Positions 44,670 through 56,919 of a stretch of DNA of 64,000 nucleotides are shown here, piece after piece. The DNA is taken from NCBI RefSeq assembly GCF_009914755.1, contig NC_060942.1. One strand, written 5' to 3'. The notes beneath the pieces were generated by a model that ran no database searches, was not told where the DNA came from, and saw only the letters and a program-made list of their open reading frames with translations. Origin of the DNA: the human T2T-CHM13v2.0 reference genome, Homo sapiens. Within the stretch, counting starts at the first letter, position 1. Each line of letters opens with the position of its first letter. A program made the translations under genes and the position numbers.

Positions 44670-45619
44670 ACTTTAACAAGCAGACCAAGAGATAGAGTGC
44701 TGTGTGCGGTTAGTACCAAAGACTAGATTCATAGAATCCTCACTGTGGCCATTTTGATACAGACTGAATTGGAACAGGACAATGTAGAACACAGAGGAAG
44801 AACAGCAACAGGAGTGGAAACAAGACAACAAAAAGGCCCTGCATGAGCTGTGCACAGAAATGTTCCCTTACTTGCACTGGGCTAAGATTTTCACCAATTC
44901 TTCAGGAAAAAAGAAAATGGAAGTTAGCATTGAAATGACACCAAGTATTGTTGGTTTTGGTTTCAATCAGATACATATGTATTGAACAAACTCTATCTTT
45001 CATATATTAAGGAAGGCTCTGGTGTTAATAAAATAGCATGAAAATAAATTCCTGCAGGAATCAGGTGGGAGAGAGACTACAGGTGGAGAAGATTTAACAT
45101 AGAGATTTGGAGTAATTTGTTTGGAAAATGTGCTATGGAAGGCACGTAATATAAATAATAAGGTTTTGGTCAGCTAGCAGCACATTTGAAGCTAGCATGG
45201 ATGTGTAGGGAGGTCATCAAGATTCTATAGTTTTCCTTAGTAAGGCTCTGCAGTTGGGAGGAGGAGCAGGATGAACGGGTGGAGGGAACTGGGTCAAGCT
45301 TGGCACAGTACCCACTTAAATATTGAAGTGGCTGACCTTGCTGCCTGGGCTAATTATCATCATCATAATCACTAAAAAATTTTTTTGAGCTCTTACTATA
45401 TGCCAGTTTCTGTTCTTAAGTCTTTAAATGGATCATCTTTGGGCTGGGCAGGAGGCATGTGATCATAAGAGAATCAGCAAGCTGTGTAAGATGGAAAGGC
45501 AGGCAGAGTCATTCCAAAGCTTAGTAAAGGTTCTAGAAATTTGTATTCAACTGCTTCAGTGTATACTGAACATGGATGAAGTTCAGTATGAGAAATTCAG
45601 CTTTAAAGATTTGACAGTT

Positions 45620-45974
45620 CCAAAATTAATATTGTTATAATGTCCATACTACCCAAAATGATCTATTGATTTAATGAAATCCCTATCAAAATTTCAATGA
45701 CATTTTTCCTAGAAATAAAAAAAAATTCTAAAATTTTCACGGAACTACAGAAAACTCTGAATAGCCAAAGTAATCTTATGCAAAAAAGAACAAAGCTGGA
45801 GGCATCTCATTACCTGACTTCATAATATACTACAAAGCTATAGTAATCAAAGCAGCATAGTACTGGCGTAAAAATTGATGTACAGACTAATGGAACAGAC
45901 AGGAGGGCACAGAAATAAATCTGCACATTACAATCCATTGTTTTTTGACAAAGAAGCCAAGATGTATACACTGA
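45620..45974 (+). mobile_element. L1M(A) ORF2 remnant, left half (interrupted)
   Basis: aatgtccatactacccaaa...aagaacaaagctggaggcatc...tttttgacaaagaagccaag. Confidence 0.88.
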
Positions 45975-46034
45975 AGCAGTTGAATACAAATTTCTAGAAC
46001 CTTTACCAAGCTTTGGAATCACTTTGCCTGCCTT

Positions 46035-46440
46035 CCCATATCTTGGGGGGTGTCCACCCCACTGCGATGTCGATCGTAATACCCAGCCAGGGGAGGGGGG
46101 TGATATTACTCCCCATATGGCGGGGGGTGTCCACCACCCTGCTATGTGGATCATAATACCCAGTGGGGTGGAGGGGGGTGATATTACTCCCCATATGGCG
46201 GAGGGTGTCCAGCCTCCTGCGATGTGGATTGTAATAACCAGGAGGAGAGACGGGGGCGATATTGCTCCCCATATCGCAGGGGGTGTCCACCCTTCTGCGA
46301 TGTGGACCGTAATACCCAGTGGGAGAGACGGGGTGATATTACTTCACATATGTCGGGGGGTGTCCACCCCACTGCGATGTAGACCCTAATACCCAGAGAG
46401 GGAGAAGGGGTAATATTACTCCCCATGTCATGGGGGGTGT
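46035..46440 (-). repeat. SATR2-like satellite block A (~5 x 77 bp)
   Basis: Units ggggtgtccacccc.ctgcgatgtggatcgtaatacccag...gatattactccccatat; family name from recall. Confidence 0.8.
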
Positions 46441-49400
46441 TCACCCTCCTTCTATATGGGGAGTAATATCATCCTCTCCCATCCTGGATATTAGGAACAA
46501 TTTCACAGGGTGTGTGTACACAGCCTGCAATGTTGAAAGTAATGTCATCCTCTCCCCCTCCGGATATTAGGAACAATATCACAAAAGGACTGTACACTTT
46601 TTGCGATATTTCGAGTAATATCATCCTGTGATTCCCTGAATATTGGGAGACATATTTTCCACAAGGTGGGTGTACACTCATTGCTATACTGGGAGTAACA
46701 TCCTACTGTACCCCCCGGAAATTATGAGCAATATCACAGGGGTGCACAGCCATTGCCATAGCAGAAGTAATATCATGCGCTCCCTCACTAGTTTTTAGGA
46801 ACAATATCACAGGGGGAAGTACACCTTCTGGGGTATTGGGAATAATATCATCATCTCTTCTTGTAGATATTAGGTACAATATCACGGGGGGGGGTGTACA
46901 CCCCTTGCTCTATTAGAAGTAATATCGTTCTCGCCTCTTCTAGATTTTACCAATAATATCACAAGCGGGGTGTACATCCCTTGTTATATTGGGAGTAATA
47001 GCATCTTCTTTCAACCTGGATATTGAGAACAATATTACATGGGGGTGTACATCCCTTCAATATTCGGAGTAACAGTATCTTCTCCACTCCTGGATATAAG
47101 AAACAATATCACAGGCAGGGTGTACACCCCTTGTTGTATTGGGAGTAATAGCATCTTCTTTCAACCTGGATATTGAAAACTGTATCACATGGTGAGTGTC
47201 CATGCCTTCAATATTGGTAGTAATACTAATTTCTTCCCTCCTGGATATAAGAAACAATATCACGGGTGTGGTGTACACCCCTTGCAATATTGGGAGTAAC
47301 GTCACCTCTCCCTATGTGGTTATTACGGAGAAAATCACAGGGTGGCTGTACACTTCCTACGTTATTGGGAGTAATATCATCCACAACCCCCCTGGATGGC
47401 AGGAACCGTATCACAGAAGGGGTGTACAGCCCCTGCGATATTGGGAGTAATATTATTCTCTTGTCCCTGTACGTTAGGAACTATATCACAGGGGGGCTGT
47501 ACACCTTCTGTGATATTAGAATTAATGTTATCATCTTCCCCACTGAATATTAGGAACAATATCACAGAAGGGTGTACACCCCCTGCGATCAGGCCAGTAA
47601 TATCATCGGCTCCTTCCCTGGATATTAGGAACAATTTCACAAGGTGTGTACACCCCCTGCGCTATTGGGAGTAACATTATTCTCTCTTCCCCTCGATATT
47701 AGAAAGAATATCACAGGTGGAGGGTACACCCCACCCCCTGCGATATTGGGAGTAATATCATCCTCTTTTAACCTGGATATTAGGAGCGGTGTCACAGGGG
47801 GCGTGTACACTTCCTTCGATACTGGGAGTAATATCCTCTCTCCCCGTAAATAGTAGGAAAAATATCAAAGGTGTGTACAGCACTTGCGATATTGAGAGTA
47901 ACATAATCCTCCCCTCACCTGGATATCAGAAATAATATCACGGTGGGGGGGTGTACACAACCTGCGATATTGGGAGTAACATTATTTTCTGCCCCCATGG
48001 ATGTTGAGAACAGTATCACAAGGGCGGTGTACACCGTCTGCGATAATGGGTGTAATAGCGTCCTCACTCCCCCTAGATATTAGGAACAATACCACAGGCA
48101 GATTACACACCCGCTGCAACGTTGGGAGTAATATCATCCTTTCCCCCCTGGATACTAGGAACAATATCTCATGGGAGGTGTACAGCCCATTCCATTTTGG
48201 GAGTAATATTAATTTCTTCATTGCTGGAAATAAGAAACAATATAACAGGGGTGGTGTACACACCCTGTGATATTGCCAGTAATAGAGACTTCGCCCCCCC
48301 CACCGGATATTAGGAACAACATCAAAAAGGGGTGTATACAGCGATATTGGGATTAATATCACGCTCTCCCCCTTGAATTTAGGAACAATATCAAAGAAAG
48401 GGTGTCCACCCCTTGCGATATTGACAGTAATTACATCCTCTCCCTCCGTGGATTTTAAGAACAATACCACATAGTTGGTGTACACGCACTGCGATACTGG
48501 AAGTAATGTCATCCTCTTCCCCCTGGATATTAAAAACAGTATCACAGAGGTGGTCTACACCCCCCGCGATGTGGCCAGCAATATCATCCTTTCCCCCACT
48601 GGATATTGGGAACAACATCACAGGGGTGTGTACACCTCCTGCGCTATTGGGAGTAGTATCATTCTCTCTTCTTCTGGATATTAGGAATAATATCATAGGT
48701 GGGGTGTACAACCCCTGCGATACTGGCAGTAATATTATCCTCACGCAACCTGGATATTCAAAACCGAATAACAGGGGGGTGTACACCCCCTGCGATATTG
48801 GTAGTAACATCATTCTCTCCCCCACTTGATATTACAAAACAATATCCCAAGAAAGGGTGTACACCCTCTGAGATATTGAGAGCATTATCATCCTCTCCCC
48901 AACTAAATATGAGGAACAATGTTGGTGGGGGGGATGTACACCCCTTGCGATATTGGGAGTAATATCCTCTCCCTCCCTGGATATTAGAAACAATATCAAA
49001 GGGGTCGTGTACACCCCCTGTGATATTGGGAGTAATATCATTCTAATCTCCCCGGGATATTTGGAACAATATTATGGAGGGGGTGTACAACCTCTGCCAT
49101 ATTGTGAGTCATATCATTTCTCTTCCCCTGGATATTAGGAACAATATCTAGAGTAATAATATCCCTTCCCTTCTGGACATTAAGAACAATATCACTGGGT
49201 GGGTGTACAGCCCCTGCAATATTGGGAGTAATATCATCCTCTCCCTCTCTCGATATTAGGAACAATATCCCAAGGTGGGTGTACATCCCCTGCGATATTG
49301 GGCGTAATATCATCGTCTGCCAACATGGATATTGGGAACAATTTCACGGGGTGGGGAGGGGGTGTACACCTTCTTCCATGTTGGGAGTAATATCATCCTC

Positions 49401-50325
49401 TCCCCCCGAATTGTAGGAAAAACTTCGAAAGGGTTTTACCACTTGTGCAATATTGGCAGTAATATCATCCTCTCCCCACCTAGATATTAGGAACTATATC
49501 ACAGGATGCTGTACACTTCTTGCGATATTGGGAGGAATATCATCCTCTCCCATCATGGATATTAAGAACAATATCACAGGGAAGGTGGACAACCCCTGCG
49601 ATATTGAGGGTAATATTATGCTCTCCCCTTCTGGACATCAGGAATAATATCACAGGAGGTGTGTACAACCCCTGCGATATTAGGAGTAATGCCATCTTTT
49701 CCCCCCGAATATAAGAAACAATATCACAGGAAGATGTACACCCCCTGAGATATTGGGAGTAATATCATTCTCTCCTACTCTGGATATTCAGAACAATATA
49801 ACGGGGGTGGAGTGGCGTGTATACCCCTGCGGTATTGGGAGTAATATCTTCCTCTCCACCGCTGGCTATTAGGAACAATGTCACAGAAGGGGTGTACACC
49901 CCCTGGTGTATTGGGAGTAATATCATCCTCTCCGTCCCTGGATATTAGGAACAATATCACTAAGGAGTGTACACCTCCTGTGATACTGAGACTAGTATCA
50001 TCCTCTTGCCCCCTGGATATTAGGAACAATATCACAGGGGTGGTGTACACCTCCTGCGAATTTGGGGCAAATGTCATCCTCTCCACCTTTGGATATTAGA
50101 GACAATATCACAGGAGGGGTCTACGCCCCCTGCAATATTGGGAGTGATATCATCCTCTCCCCCCCGGATATCAGGAACAATATCACAGAAGGGATGTGCA
50201 CCCACTGTGATATTTTGAGTAATGTCATCCTCTACCCGCTGGCTATTAAGAACAATACAGGTGGTGTAAGCTTTCCGCGACATTGGGAGTTATAGCATCG
50301 TCTCCCCCAGATATCAGGAACAATA
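46441..50325 (+). repeat. SATR1-like satellite block B (~50 x 75 bp)
   Basis: Units gggggtgtacaccccctgcgatattgggagtaatatcatcctctccccctggatattaggaacaatatcaca. Confidence 0.9.
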
Positions 50326-50604
50326 ATATTAATATTAATAATTAATATCAATTATTAATATTAATAAAATGATGCTAATTAATATCAATCATTACTATTA
50401 GTAATTAAAGTGCTTACAATGAAATTAATGTTAATAACATCAATAAGAGCCATAGTAAATAAAACATTAGCAATTTATATTGATTAATAACTAGTATTAG
50501 TATTAATAATTAATAATACCATTATGTTAGAAATCAGTATTAGTTGCTATCAATAATTAATAATAATAATTAGTGATTACTAATGACATTATCACTATTA
50601 TCAT
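50326..50604. repeat. AT-rich low-complexity spacer between inverted satellite arms
   Basis: taatattaatattaataattaat... strongly AT-rich. Confidence 0.9.
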
Positions 50605-51670
50605 TTCTAATACCGCACGGGGTCTACACCCAACTGTGATTTTGTTCCTAATAGTCAGGGCAGGAGAGCATATTAGTTTCAATATCGCAGTAGGTGTACA
50701 CCCGCCCTGTGATACTGATTCTAATATCCACGGGTCAGAGTATGAAATTACTCCAAATAGAGCAGGGGGTGTCCAGCCACCCGGTGATATTGCTCCTAAT
50801 ATTCACAAAAGAAGAGAATGATATCACTGCCAATATCGCAGGGAGTGTACACCTCTTCTGTGATACTGTTCCTAGCATCCGGAGGGGGAGAGGATGATAA
50901 TACTTAAAGTATCGCAGGATGTGTACACCCACCCTGTGATATTGTTCCTAATATCCAGGAAGGGAGAGGATGATATTACTCCCCTCATAGCACAGATGTA
51001 CACCCACCCTGGGATGTTGTTCCTAATGTCCATGGAGGAGAGAGGCTGATATTACTCCCAATATCGCAGGGGGTGTACATCCACCCTGTGATACTGCTCT
51101 TAATATTCAAAGGCCGGGAGGTTGATATTATTCCCAACATCGCAGAAAGTGTACACCCCCGTGTGATATTGTTCCTAATATCCAGAAGGGGAGAAGATGA
51201 TATTACTCCCCATATCGCAGGAGGTGTACAGCCACTCTGTGATTTTTTTTAATAAGCGGGGGGGTGGGGGGAGAAGATAATATTATTCTCAATTTCTCAG
51301 GGAATGTACAACCCCCTGTGAGATTGTCCTTAATATTCAAAGACAGAGGGGATGATATTACTCCCAATATCGCAGAAAGTGTACACCCCCTAGTGATATT
51401 GCTCCCATGATCCACGATAGAAGAGGATGATATTACTTTCAATATCACAGAATGTGTACACGCACCCAGTGATATTGTTCCTAATTTCAAGGTGGGAGAG
51501 GATGATATGACACCTAATATCGCAGAGAGTAAAAACACTCCTGTGATATTGTTCTTAATATCAAGGGTGGGGAGAGGACGATATTACTGCCAATACTGCA
51601 GAGGGTGTACACTTGTCTGGAAATAGTTCATAATTTCAAGAAGGGAAGATGGTATTACTCACAATATCAT
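50605..51670 (-). repeat. SATR1-like block C (~14 units), inverted relative to B
   Basis: Units gtgtacacccc.ctgtgatattgttcctaatatccag...gatgatattactcccaatatcgcag. Confidence 0.9.
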
Positions 51671-51689
51671 AAACAAGCTGTCGGTCCAC

Positions 51690-51971
51690 CGTGGATCGTA
51701 ATATCCAAGGGAAGAGAGGGGGGTGATATTACTCCCCATATCGTGGGGGGTGCCCACCCCCCTGCGATGTGGATTGCAATATCCAGGGGGCAAGATGGGG
51801 ATGATATTACTCCCCATATCGCGGGGAATGTCCACCCCACTGCGATGTGGATCATAATATCCACGATATGGGGGTGATATTACTCCACATATTGCAGGGG
51901 GGTGCCCACCCCCCTGCAATATGGATTGTAATATCCAGGGGAGGAGAGGGGGGTGATAATACTCCCCATAT
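51690..51971 (-). repeat. SATR2-like block D (~4 units), same type and orientation as A
   Basis: gtggatcgtaatatcc...gatattactccccatatc. Confidence 0.8.
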
Positions 51972-52027
51972 TCTCTTATGATCTCATGCCTCCTGCCCAG
52001 CCCAGAGATGAGACTTTCCTTACCTAA

Positions 52028-52712
52028 TGAGAAAAGGACAGTCTCTTCAACAAACAGTGCTGGAAAAACTGGATATCCACATGTGGAAGAATAAAAATGG
52101 ACCCTCATCTCACAACATACACAAAAATCAACTCAAAATGGATTAAAGACTTAAATGTATGACCCGAAAATGTAAAACTATGGAAGAAAATATAAGGGAA
52201 AACCCTATGATGTTGATCTGGACAGTGATTTTTTTGGATATGACCCGAAAGGCACAGACAACAAAAGCAAAAATAAAGAAATGGGATTATGTCAAACTAA
52301 AAAGCTTCTGCCCAAGCAAGGAAATAATCAATAGAATGAAGAGACAACCTATGGAATGAGAGAAAATATTTGCAAACCATACATCTGATAAGTGGTCAAT
52401 ATCCAAAATATATAAGGAAATCAAATGACTCAATAACAGGAAATCAAATAACCTGATTTACAAATGGGCAAAGGATCTGAGTAGATATTTCTCCAAAGAA
52501 GACATGGAAATGGCCAATTGCTAAGAAAGTAGATTTAAGTGTTCTTTTTACAAAAAAAGATAAGTATTTGAGATAGGGCTTTGTTAAATAGCTGAATTTT
52601 GCCAATCTACAATACATAAATATATCAAAACATCATGTTGTATGCTATAAATATATACAATTTTTATTTGTCATTTAAGGTAAACAAATTTTTAAAAATG
52701 AAACAAACAAAA
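52028..52712 (+). mobile_element. L1M(A) right half: ORF2 remnant and 3' end
   Basis: gaaaaggacagtctcttcaa...aaaatcaactcaaaatggattaaagactt; continues the L1 sequence broken at 45974. Confidence 0.88.
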
Positions 52713-54890
52713 AGATTTGACAATTCCAGAATGAATGACTGAGATAAAATGTAGTGATCTGATCATCTTGAAAGGTCATTACAATTGATTGAATTATTTT
52801 GGCTGTTGTGGAATATTTTCCACGTGGCCTTGTTTGGAAGCAGGGTTATAAATAAGGTCATCCCTTCCTGATTTTAGGGATGTGAAATCAAACTTAGTAT
52901 TTTAAAATTTTGTTTTGAGTTGGGCTTCCACTGGTAGAAAAATAAATGAGAACTTAATTCCATTATTTAGAATTGAAAAAATAGATTTTTAAACAAAATG
53001 ATTTGTCTACCTGTGCTGTGGTGGAAAAGTATGGGTGTCTGTGACAGGGTTTCCTTTATCAAGTGAAAAAACTTCAACCCAGACTGGGCTAATTTTTCAT
53101 TTGGTAATATGGCCATATCTGGGAAGCAATCATTTCCAGATCTTAACTGGCATTTCAATTACTAACTTTTACATTTCACATGTTTAATGGAACCTGGAAA
53201 AGGAGACACAGATTTTAGTCTTCTTGGCTAGTTTGTGGGTATAGAACAATCTTAACTCGGACATCGTGGAAGTCAGTGAGCTGTGTAGACAGGACCTTCT
53301 GGGGAGCTGATTGTTCATGCACTGCAAAACTCTCTTTCAATTATTGAAATCAACTTTTTTCCAATGCCTCAAAGCAAGGACGATTCTGAGGCCTTTGAAA
53401 GCAATTTTTCATTTTGTTTCTTTGCATACTGACACATCTCGATGTTTACTACGTAACAGAAGAGCTAATTTAAAGCAGTGTGTTGCTAAGCCTAGCTCTC
53501 TCCCTATGTCTCCCTGCCTCTGCCACCCTGGATCCTGTGGTCCTCAGTACTTTTCTGTGCCATACATTAGAATCCCAGAATGGCATTCTAAATAGGAGAC
53601 AGGCGGCAGAGTAGTAAAAATTGAGTGAATTTATGATTCAACTGAGAAGATTCTCTTTCCAGTATTCTTTTCCCCAGTAAAGTGATTGTACTGATTCCTT
53701 TGTAAATTTGGTCGCTTGGAAAGTTCTAAGGATTGAGCAAATTGCTTTTAAAGAATCTCCATTTTCTGCATATGTATGTCACCTACTCAAAATCTTATTT
53801 TCCAGTTTAAATTATTTTCTAACTAATATGTTATACTTCCCTCAGCAATCCCTCAACTGTAAGAAAAATGCATTTTTTTCTTCTAGTGATAAATAGTAAG
53901 TTCATTGCATTTCTTAGAATATAAACATTCATAATTGATAACGTCCACACATCTCCCCAGTCCTCATGTTTGTATTATTAGCTTAATATGGAAAGACTGT
54001 GTGTGTGTGTGTATGTGTGTGTGTGCATTTGTGTCCATAATAAAAGAGAAATCTTATGTGTCCATAATAAAAGAGAAATCTATTTTGCTAATGAGAGTTT
54101 CCAATCAACAAATTTTGCCTTGTGAATTACAGTTTTAAAGTACTTTCAATTATTAAATTTATTGCTATTTAAAATCCTATTTAGGAACCTTGCTATTAAT
54201 ACTAGAACTTTAGTTACAGCCTCAAGTTTGAGCCCCTCCCAAAAAATCTCATCTCCTGGAGCCTGCAAAAGTGTATAAAATATGTTCAGAAAAATACATC
54301 TTGGACAGCCATGGAGTGGAATGGAGAGCTGGTGGGATATATGGCTGAGAGGAGAGGTCCAAGACAGTGCCTTTCCTGGTCACAAGGTCAAGGTCAATAT
54401 GGCTCACATGGGTGATGCCATTTTCTTCTTGTTCTCATAACATCCAGAAGATGTGCTGGCTGATCAGCAGTTTTGCAGAACTGCTACTTTGGTTCTCAGG
54501 GAGTGCTCTAGAATATATTTACATAACTTGAGAAAAATGTCTTGAGCATATACTGCATGGCCAGTACTGTGCCTGAGCCCTCTTAGTGTCTAGATGTGAA
54601 TTGTAGTTATAGTCTCATGGCTAAAAGTTGTTTTGTATTTCAGTCTCTTCTGCCACCTGGTTTTTAAAATGTTTTCCTTTTTGAGAAAATCACAATTACC
54701 TGTATATGTAAATTTTATTGTTAAAGATGAGTACTGATATTTTGACTTTATTTTGGGTCATAGGCTTGCAAAGCTTTACTTAAGACTTCAGTAAGTAAAG
54801 GCCCATGACTGATTTGTAGAATCACTGAAATAATAGTAAGACTCTACTTCTCAGAAGATGAAACAGAGTCTTAGAGAAGTTTATTACTAA

Positions 54891-55206
<316 letters not shown>

Positions 55207-56919
55207 TGACAGTTGTGTTTTTAACTTGAATTTTATACTTAATTTTTGATAAGAATTTTTATTTGGGGTGTATTATGATATTTGAATATATGATATTTTG
55301 TGGGTATGGAGATTGCAGATGATTTACCAGATTTGCAGAGCAAGTAATAGAGGACAGTTTATTCCTTCTTAGTTTTCACTTGCTCTTCTTCCACATGTGT
55401 TAGCCACTGTTAGCTCCACTCCAGATGAGATAGAGCTTCTTTTCTGTCTGAGCATGAATTTGCTGGGAGCCATGAGATAAGTTTTTTCTTAGGTCACATA
55501 GTTATTAAATAAATATTCACTGAGTTTAATTTATGAACAACGAAAGTAAAACCAGACACGATTCCTCCCCAAAAGATGAGCTCATGTGAAACAGTGGGGA
55601 ATGCATCATCTTTCAGGTTACCAGTGTATGGTGGCACTACAGTATCAAGGTTATGTATTATAGACAATAAGTAAGGAAGACATATCTGAGCTGATTCTAA
55701 GATCAGAATCTGGTGATGTGTTAATTGAACACTTGGCAATTGCTTTCTTAGTTTACCCATTCAGATTACTTATCCTATTGAGGAAATGAAGATAGAAAAG
55801 ATTGGTGGCTTTATTATATGTTACACTGATGCTTTCGGTTAGAGAGCATGGGTTGCATAAAATATTTTAAAATGCGGATGGATAATTTTTAGACCAGTTA
55901 GGATGGCTACATTAGAGAATCCAAGACAATGTCTGCCATTATCTTTACAATACACACTGATTTTTGTGTGTACCTTGTCATTATGTAAGCTTCCTACAGG
56001 GCTGTGGTAAGTCATGGACAGGGTTAAGGAGAAGGGTACATGTCGAGAAACTAAATCACATTTGGAGAGGAGATGTAACAAAGGTAGGGTTCAGAGGTTT
56101 ACTGGTAACAATTCCAAATTTGGAATGAAAAAGTTACTCTTTGTTTAGCGTTCGAGTTGGGAGTTTGCCCTGCAAGAGACAGTCAACCACTGACTTCAGT
56201 CGAACGTACTTGGAAAGGGAAGAACTTAAACCAGCCATGAACAGAAGAAAGCCAGGTTTTCTGGAAACATCGCCAAAACCCAGCAATTTCTCAGAATTTT
56301 CAGAGGCGCCAGGGGGGTGTTTGCATTTCAATGGAAAAAGTTCTGAAAGCTCTGGAAACTATTCTCAGTTTTACTTTCTCATTGAAAGGCAAAAACCATG
56401 GCTGTAAGTAAGAGACAGAAGCATTTGCTATGGCTTTGTTAAGAATTAAGAAAAGGGACCTCTGGAAAATTTGAATTGTCCAATCCTTTGCCACAGAGCC
56501 AAGACAAAGTGGTCCAAGTCATAATGGCAAATAGAAAATAAAAGTACTGTTAGCTTTAAGACAAAAGTACTCAATGTCTGGAGCCACTTTCCACCAGCCT
56601 GGGTTTTAAAAGAAAGACAGAACTTTCTAGATTTAAAGAGACATAGTTGCAGCTGTATTGCAATAACATAATGGTAGCTCTCATAAGTACATACTTGTCA
56701 TAAGTATTTAATCTTTTCACACACTACAAATACCTTGTTAGGTTGCTAAGGGGTTACAGTACTTATGAGAAACGATCTTTGAGAAGAAGAAGAATACTAT
56801 TTCCAGTTAAGATTTAGAAGAATTTTAAGTAGATCTATAGTAACAGTCAAAAGTAGAAAATATGCAGTATAGCAAACAAAATTATTTTTGGTCTAATTCT
56901 ACCACATAAAACTTGAAGG

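What the first reader, a model, noticed from the sequence alone, without database searches (positions are those of the whole stretch)
46035..51971. Satellite ends look circularly permuted at CCCATAT: footprint of an integrated circle
Seen: the array starts at CCCATAT (46035-46041) and ends at CCCATAT (51965-51971), the same position of the repeat unit. Terminal blocks A and D are the same variant (gtgtccacc/gatgtggat type) in the same orientation, and the interior is the other variant. Joining end to start gives one continuous in-register SATR2 block, and removing the array leaves ...gccttCCCATATtctcttatg... Inference: single-crossover integration of an extrachromosomal circle through a 7-bp homology, or a 7-bp TSD that happens to match the unit.
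Basis: partly seen in the sequence, partly recalled or inferred. Interest (0 to 1): 0.75.

Follow-up and report, generated by a model that had tools for sequence, protein, structure and literature searches.

The report
One-unit SATR satellite insertion, chr18
This is one copy-and-a-bit of a known composite human satellite (SATR type), placed in an old L1 element by DNA break repair; its matching ends reflect the repeat's periodic build and short junction homologies and are not a clear footprint of an integrated DNA circle.

Summary
A 5.94-kb array of 76-78-bp monomers runs from CCCATAT (46035) to CCCATAT (51965). Outer blocks A and D are one variant in one orientation. The interior is a second variant: an inverted block B, a 288-bp AT-rich spacer and a forward block C.

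The circle reading is only partly supported.

1. The order variant1 / inverted variant2 / spacer / forward variant2 / variant1 is the periodic composite SATR unit. It recurs at other loci, in tandem and in other excerpts, so an excerpt of just over one period starts and ends in the same variant.
2. The flank has an array-free inverted paralog 400 bp upstream. It reads TTCCAT, 16 bp, ATTCTC, not one CCCATAT. So the 7-bp repeat is CCCAT native on the left plus AT native on the right, with 16 bp of target lost.
3. A and D are no closer to each other than to variant-1 monomers elsewhere, and they overlap in period position.
4. Ends at other loci are variable.

The array plus the inverted 134-bp flank copy interrupt a contiguous old L1. 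This fits microhomology-mediated repair or template switching. Part of the array plus 4.6 kb of flank was later duplicated to chr4 (93.9%). A circle joined by end joining is not excluded.

The parts
45433..45566 (-). U(-): array-free 134-bp paralog of the array's flanks, and likely template of the flank copy. The 16 bp at 45475-45490 occupy the place of the array.
   Evidence: the only other genomic matches of the flanks, at 95%; 72/76 and 40/42 identical; sequence.
45621..45962 (+). Old L1 ORF2 fragment, left part.
   Evidence: aligns to L1 copies in L021 (8594-8252, 73%) and L022 (74%). The L1 and ORF2 names are recalled, not from a tool.
45964..46039 (+). U(+) left part: inverted copy of 45566-45491, ending in ...TCCCAT.
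46035..46041 (+). Left CCCATAT. CCCAT aligns to native U (TCCAT in the paralog). AT is array or filler.
46042..46453 (+). Block A: 5 full variant-1 monomers (SATR2-like; all five carry TAATA[AC]CCAG, four of them TAATACCCAG) plus a partial monomer in which the orientation flips.
46454..50325 (-). Block B: variant-2 (SATR1-like) monomers in inverted orientation, 52 scored above threshold. The first 2.4 monomers after the flip are conserved at 80-90% at many loci.
50326..50613 (.). AT-rich spacer of the composite unit. It starts with a roughly 40-bp palindrome at 50327-50366.
   Evidence: (81% to chr15, 77% to chr4, 66-72% elsewhere).
50614..51667 (+). Block C: 14 variant-2 monomers, forward orientation.
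   Evidence: about 72% to B in every register, with no mirror register.
51664..51700 (+). Conserved junction from C to variant 1, the canonical start of a variant-1 block.
   Evidence: the 37-bp motif (up to 9 substitutions) is found in 11 of 19 loci..
51692..51971 (+). Block D: 0.6 + 3 variant-1 monomers (TAATATCCAG type), ending in CCCATAT at 51965-51971.
51970..52011 (+). U(+) right part: inverted copy of 45474-45433, beginning ATTCTCTTATG.
52012..52273 (+). Old L1, right part, contiguous in L1 coordinates with 45621-45962.
   Evidence: in the L021 L1 copy only 13 bp separate the two aligned parts.
47125..56548 (+). Segment duplicated to chr4:22567393-22576509: part of B, the spacer, C, D, U right part, L1 and 4.6 kb of flank.
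   Evidence: The flank 51972-56350 is 93.9% identical over 4405 columns.

Best explanation
The block is one period, plus the start of the next, of the composite SATR satellite. The order is a variant-1 (SATR2-like) block, an inverted variant-2 (SATR1-like) block, an AT-rich spacer, a forward variant-2 block, then the first 3.6 monomers of a second variant-1 block. It begins and ends in variant-1 monomers because the composite is periodic.

The array lies inside a 134-bp sequence (U) that is an inverted copy of sequence 400 bp upstream. U plus the array (45963-52011) interrupt an otherwise contiguous old L1.

The most likely origin is repair of a break, or a replicative template switch, that used short microhomologies:
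- CCAT (4-5 bp) on the left and AT (2 bp) on the right at the two array-U junctions, with 16 bp of U lost.
- A CAAAGATG-like match where U rejoins the L1.

The two CCCATAT copies are what these junctions leave behind: CCCAT native on the left, AT native on the right. Later, part of the array plus 4.6 kb of flank was copied to chr4.

Shown: the anatomy, the periodic composite at other loci, the array-free paralog, L1 continuity, and the chr4 and chr15 paralogs. Inferred: the repair pathway, whether the U copy and the array arrived in one event or two, and the chr18-to-chr4 direction.
For: - Composite order recurs. Among 19 loci in hand, B-spacer-C occurs in 9, C followed by variant 1 in 14, and variant 1 flipping into inverted variant 2 in 9. 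Tandem repeats of the whole unit are seen, for example in L029 and L030.
- Macaque SATR cores are described with an inverted SATR1 array, an AT-rich repeat and a forward SATR1 array. SATR1-SATR2 cores there carry SATR2 blocks of about 377 bp (preprint 10.1101/2025.08.04.668424, passages). A is 387 bp.
- Empty-site paralog: (112/118 identical, with a 16-bp gap).
- The 16-mer is not array-like: 38 of 300 shuffles and 77 of 300 random genomic 16-mers score at least as well.
- L1 continuity across 45963-52011.
- CAAAGAAGCCAAGA left of the insert resembles CAGAGATGAGA at the end of U.
- The chr4 copy shares the right junction, so the junction predates a duplication that is 6.1% diverged.
- The chr15 paralog (81-85%) ends at different points.
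- Ends at other loci fall at many monomer positions.
Against: - U(-) is a paralog, not the true pre-insertion allele. Its 16 bp could have changed after the duplication.
- Exact phase identity of the two array ends is left to a 2-bp AT microhomology or to chance (about 1/76 to 1/8).
- A return of a template switch to within 16 bp of where it left U is not explained. The two-step alternative needs two hits in the same 134 bp.
- The SATR1 and SATR2 names could not be checked, because no Dfam or RepeatMasker library is on hand.
- The survey covers 19 loci, several of them paralogous, not the whole genome.
- Monomer registers inside variant-1 blocks are not resolved by identity: 71-73% in every register.
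Confidence: 0.55

Rival explanations
1. A circle holding a whole number of monomers (about one composite period) was excised from a SATR array by exchange between variant-1 monomers. It was opened at a monomer boundary and joined into a break in U by end joining, with 16 bp of target lost.
For: - The ends are in the same monomer phase.
- Both ends lie in variant 1.
- This matches the signature proposed for Rsp-like arrays in Drosophila (PMC7403614, passages).
- Variant-1 block lengths vary from 1 to 12 monomers, so a 8.6-monomer donor block is not impossible.
- Four of the five A monomers form a local clade, so A may have grown after insertion.
Against: - There is no special A-D affinity.
- D plus A is 8.6 monomers, against 1-5 in the internal C|variant 1|B blocks in hand.
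- The model does not explain the inverted U copy.
- The chr15 paralog is less than one period, with ends out of phase.
- No eccDNA data for SATR were found. Two searches were run; one search listed 25 of 31 papers and one search listed 12 of 31. Neither combined SATR with eccDNA.
Confidence: 0.2
2. One reading: single-crossover integration of a circle through a 7-bp CCCATAT homology already present at the target, or a 7-bp target-site duplication that happens to match the unit.
For: CCCATAT lies at both ends, and removing one copy plus the array gives a clean join.
Against: - The paralogous empty site has TTCCAT, then 16 bp, then ATTCTC, not one CCCATAT next to TCTCTTATG.
- CTT follows the left copy in both the filled and the empty site, but not the right copy.
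- There are no fixed termini or shared TSD-like ends at other loci.
Confidence: 0.05
3. The array first sat in the upstream U. U plus array was then copied in inverted orientation into the L1, and the upstream array was later deleted, leaving 16 bp.
For: - It explains why the array sits at the same point of U, without a second hit in U.
- SATR loci are rich in inverted arrangements.
Against: - The 16-bp remnant is no more array-like than shuffles or random 16-mers.
- It needs a 6-kb inverted copy followed by a near-precise loss.
Confidence: 0.1

Closest known systems
SATR1/SATR2 mixed-array core units (macaque T2T preprint 10.1101/2025.08.04.668424; passages read)
   Same: - Two monomer variants in blocks.
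- An inverted array, an AT-rich repeat and a forward array.
- SATR2 blocks of uniform size, about 377 bp there against 387 bp for A here.
- Interstitial, heterogeneous cores.
   Different: - This is a single unit in human chr18, inside an L1, with a 134-bp inverted flank copy.
- There are no large inverted SD spacers.
- Family names are not verified here.
Xiao/DA core duplicons with SATR-HERVE-SATR ends (PMC2700803 and PMC5088589; passages read)
   Same: SATR arrays mark the boundaries of duplicative transpositions. Here the chr18/chr4 duplication breaks inside block B.
   Different: No HERV-E or OR7E content was seen at this locus. The duplicated segment is only about 9.4 kb.
Proposed eccDNA reintegration of Rsp-like satellite in Drosophila (PMC7403614; passages read)
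   Same: The first and last repeats together make a complete monomer, and there is microhomology at a junction.
   Different: - The target here is not another satellite.
- 16 bp of target are missing.
- A nearby sequence was copied in inverted orientation.
- There is no evidence of circles.
Microhomology-mediated template switching (FoSTeS/MMBIR) and templated insertions at break repair. This is general knowledge and is also discussed in PMC7403614.
   Same: An inverted copy of sequence 400 bp away lies at the insertion site. The junctions carry 2-8 bp of microhomology and there is a small target loss.
   Different: The event cannot be shown to be replicative. The 5.9-kb satellite payload and the return to the same template are unusual.

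Membership tests
SATR1/SATR2 composite satellite | Tandem monomers of about 76 bp in two sequence variants arranged in blocks. | tested here: met
SATR1/SATR2 composite satellite | An inverted variant-2 array, an AT-rich spacer and a forward variant-2 array, with a conserved junction into a variant-1 block of about 360-390 bp. | tested here: met
   Literature passages.
SATR1/SATR2 composite satellite | A match to the Repbase/Dfam SATR1 and SATR2 consensus sequences. | not testable with these tools
No repeat library is on hand.
eccDNA reintegration footprint | The first and last repeats together form one complete monomer. | tested here: met
eccDNA reintegration footprint | The array is a whole number of donor periods, so the end blocks complement each other. 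| tested here: inconclusive
   D plus A is 8.6 monomers against 1-5 in internal blocks. A alone spans a canonical block. Block sizes vary, and A may have expanded locally.
eccDNA reintegration footprint | Circles of this satellite are observed. | not tested
   No eccDNA data are on hand. Literature searches gave nothing on SATR circles.
Single crossover or TSD at CCCATAT | The empty site carries exactly one copy of the repeat and is otherwise intact. | tested here: not met
   The paralogous proxy site has 16 extra bp and TTCCAT...AT. It is a proxy only, not an ortholog.
Transposable element with fixed ends | The same termini at independent copies. | tested here: not met
   Ends fall at many model positions. 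The chr15 and chr4 paralogs end elsewhere.
Segmental duplication (chr18/chr4) | Long collinear homology that extends into non-satellite flank. | tested here: met
   93.9% over 4405 columns plus 96% over 214 bp.
Templated insertion by template switching | An inserted copy of nearby sequence, with microhomology at the junctions. | tested here: met
   The inverted U copy is 94.9% identical. It lies within a contiguous L1. Microhomologies are 4-5, 2 and 7-8 bp. The pathway itself is inferred.

The most novel reading that the evidence does not exclude
SATR composite units spread in primate germlines as unit-length extrachromosomal circles that rejoin chromosomes at breaks by end joining. The chr18 array would then be such a footprint, with A enlarged afterwards by unequal exchange.
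Probability: 0.15. Interest if true: 0.6.

Novelty: new member of a known kind. Interest (0 to 1): 0.3.

Why it matters
How interstitial satellites reach new sites in primate genomes is poorly documented. SATR arrays mark breakpoints of large duplications such as 8p23.1 and Xiao/DA.

This locus gives a base-level view of one insertion: an internal empty-site proxy, junction microhomologies, a templated inverted flank copy, and a later duplication that breaks inside the array.

It cautions that matching ends of a periodic composite repeat are not evidence for a circle. It also defines a simple test across primate T2T genomes.

Tried and rejected
Only two short chr15 stretches were added.
- Fixed transposon-like termini: rejected.
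- The 16 bp of the empty paralog as an array remnant: not supported.
- B and C as a recent mirror-image duplication: rejected, about 72% in every register.
- Strong hairpins from the dyad symmetry of the monomer: weak, with z of -2.5, -2.1, -1.2 and +0.8. Whole monomers cut at the boundary gave z of -0.3 to -3.0.
- A donor locus: none stands out. Best non-paralog matches are 76-82%.
- U as a dispersed repeat: it has only the chr18 and chr4 copies. A MIR-like context upstream of U(-) is my recollection only.
- Breakpoints at the GTGT|ACAC centre of monomers were seen three times (chr4 left end, L019, L025). That is not more than chance among about 35 ends.
Full report
**Observation**

The window holds a 5.94-kb array of 75-78-bp monomers (TRF). 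CCCATAT occurs at 46035 and at 51965. 8 of the 12 + strand copies in the window lie in 46035-51971.

A monomer HMM chain resolves five parts:
- A: 5 full monomers, 46042-46428, +, with a partial monomer to 46453.
- B: 46454-50325, inverted.
- A 288-bp AT-rich spacer: 50326-50613.
- C: 14 monomers, 50614-51667, +.
- D: 51692-51971, +. Its first monomer is truncated.

Identities among 75 monomers show that A and D are one variant (A-D 0.809) and B and C another (0.73). The two variants are 0.67-0.70 alike. Both array ends fall at the last model position. What it left out is that the interior is an inverted block and a forward block around a spacer.

**What the structure is**

HMMs of the two variants were run over 18 other 10-kb SATR-bearing pieces of the same genome. 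These were picked from the hits and fetched. The same cyclic order recurs: variant 1, inverted variant 2, a gap of about 400 bp, forward variant 2, variant 1.
- Of 19 loci including the window, B-spacer-C is present in 9, C into variant 1 in 14, and variant 1 flipping into inverted variant 2 in 9.
- 33 of 74 block transitions fitted none of the three types.
- The unit repeats in tandem, for example in L029: C, v1x5, Bx11, spacer, Cx11, v1x3, Bx11, spacer, Cx11, v1x2.
- The 37-bp junction from C into variant 1 (51664-51700) is found with up to 9 substitutions in 11 of 19 loci.
- The first 2.4 B monomers after the flip are 80-90% identical to many loci, while ordinary B monomers are about 72% alike.
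- The spacer is conserved: 81% to chr15, 77% to chr4, 66-72% elsewhere.

The rhesus T2T preprint describes SATR cores with an inverted SATR1 array, an AT-rich repeat and a forward SATR1 array. It also describes SATR1-SATR2 cores with SATR2 blocks of about 377 bp (passages). A is 387 bp.

The array is therefore about one period of a periodic composite plus the start of the next variant-1 block. Matching end blocks follow from that periodicity.

**Tests of the circle idea**

1. Monomer relationships. I used 101 variant-1 monomers from 20 sources, keeping only hits scoring at least 25 and covering at least 55 model positions.
   - 4 of 5 A monomers form their own clade, and D monomers pair with their chr4 orthologs.
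   - Mean A-D identity (0.813) equals A against other loci (0.79-0.81) and is below D against several loci (0.81-0.83).
   - The related motif TAATA[AC]CCAG is in 5 of 5 A monomers (TAATACCCAG in 4 of 5), and TAATATCCAG in 3 of 4 D monomers.
2. Period position.
   - A, anchored on the flip, aligns over the whole canonical variant-1 block of L029, L030 and L031 (4.65 monomers).
   - D, anchored on the C junction, covers the first 78% of that block.
   - A and D therefore overlap and do not complement each other.
   - Identity does not resolve registers within the block (71-73% in all).
   - D plus A is 8.6 monomers, while internal blocks in hand have 1-5.
3. Other loci.
   - Ends fall at many monomer positions. 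That automated list includes soft ends.
   - A chr15 paralog (81-85%) holds only 0.6 variant-1 monomer, B, the spacer and 3.6 C monomers, with ends out of phase.
4. Empty site. The flanks have only one other genomic copy.
   - It is an inverted, array-free unit at 45433-45566. The right flank is also on chr4.
   - Alignment gives 72/76 and 40/42 identities.
   - The paralog reads ...TTCCAT, then CTTACACAGCTTGCTG, then ATTCTCTTATG.
   - The filled site reads ...TCCCAT [ATCTTGGGG...CTCCCCAT] ATTCTC.
   - So the 7-bp repeat is 5 bp native on the left plus 2 bp native on the right, and 16 bp of target are missing.
   - The 16-mer is not array-like: 38 of 300 shuffles and 77 of 300 random 16-mers score as well.
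   - A single crossover or a TSD at CCCATAT is not what this proxy shows. It is a paralog, not the ancestral allele.

**Context and history**

- L1 copies in two chr9 loci align to 45621-45962 and to 52033-52273 with only 13 bp between them. A closer look places the L1 restart at about 52012. The L1 is therefore contiguous across an insert of one T, U left part, the array and U right part.
- U(+) is an inverted copy of sequence 400 bp upstream.
- The L1 sequence just left of the insert (CAAAGAAGCCAAGA) resembles the end of U (CAGAGATGAGA; CAAAGATGA in the source copy). This fits a microhomology-guided return to the L1.
- I infer break repair or replicative template switching. I cannot tell whether the U copy and the array came in one event or two.
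- U copies differ at 6 of 118 sites. The chr18 and chr4 flanks differ by 6.1%. Those ages are similar.
- The chr4 copy begins inside a B monomer, at the GTGT|ACAC centre. It carries the same right junction and lacks the left L1 half and U left part. chr18 is therefore the likelier source.
- SATR arrays at duplication boundaries are known from 8p23.1 and from the Xiao/DA duplicons (passages).

**Comparison with print**

The signature 'first and last repeats together form a complete monomer' has been offered for eccDNA reintegration of Rsp-like repeats in Drosophila, alongside microhomology-mediated and template-switch models (PMC7403614, passages).

A full-text search for SATR1 or SATR2 found 31 papers, of which 25 were listed. 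None in the listing treats this locus or SATR circles. A second search on eccDNA, satellite, reintegration and tandem repeat listed 12 of 31 papers, none of them on SATR.

**Verdict**

The locus is an ordinary member of a known composite satellite with an informative insertion site. The circle reading in its stated form is not borne out. A circle joined by end joining remains possible, at about 0.15-0.2.

Noticed in passing
window ~47125; L015 1393-1400 (chr4:22567393-22567400): The left breakpoint of the chr18/chr4 duplication lies at the centre GTGT|ACAC of a B monomer. Two other array ends (L019, L025) also stop at this centre, which is not more than chance among about 35 ends.
   Followed up: partly
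L015 5378-5586 against window 51692-51971: The chr4 D block has one monomer fewer. Its last monomer looks like the first half of chr18 D3 fused to the second half of D4, which is an in-register unequal exchange after the duplication.
   Followed up: partly
L041, L046, L047 (chr15:79574065-79579100): This is an older paralog (81-85%) of the last A monomer, B (without window 46830-48250), the spacer and C1-4. Its left side abuts the 5'-truncated end of a young antisense L1.
   Followed up: partly
window 50327-50366: An AT-only palindrome of about 40 bp lies at the start of the spacer (95% self-match on the opposite strand; DNA fold z -3.15).
   Followed up: partly
L021 7539-8594 (chr9:117997539-117998594): A variant-1 block abuts an L1 copy of the same region as the chr18 L1, about 330 bp further along the element. 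The junction lies at a TAA.A.CCAG-like stretch shared by the L1 and the monomer.
   Followed up: no
window 46435-46620: The first 2.4 B monomers after the A/B flip are 80-90% identical to more than 15 other loci. They are a position-specific, conserved piece of the composite.
   Followed up: partly
window 46035-51971: The hub's list of NCBI-masked stretches, headed 'longest', does not include this 5.9-kb satellite. It seems to be unmasked in that file.
   Followed up: no
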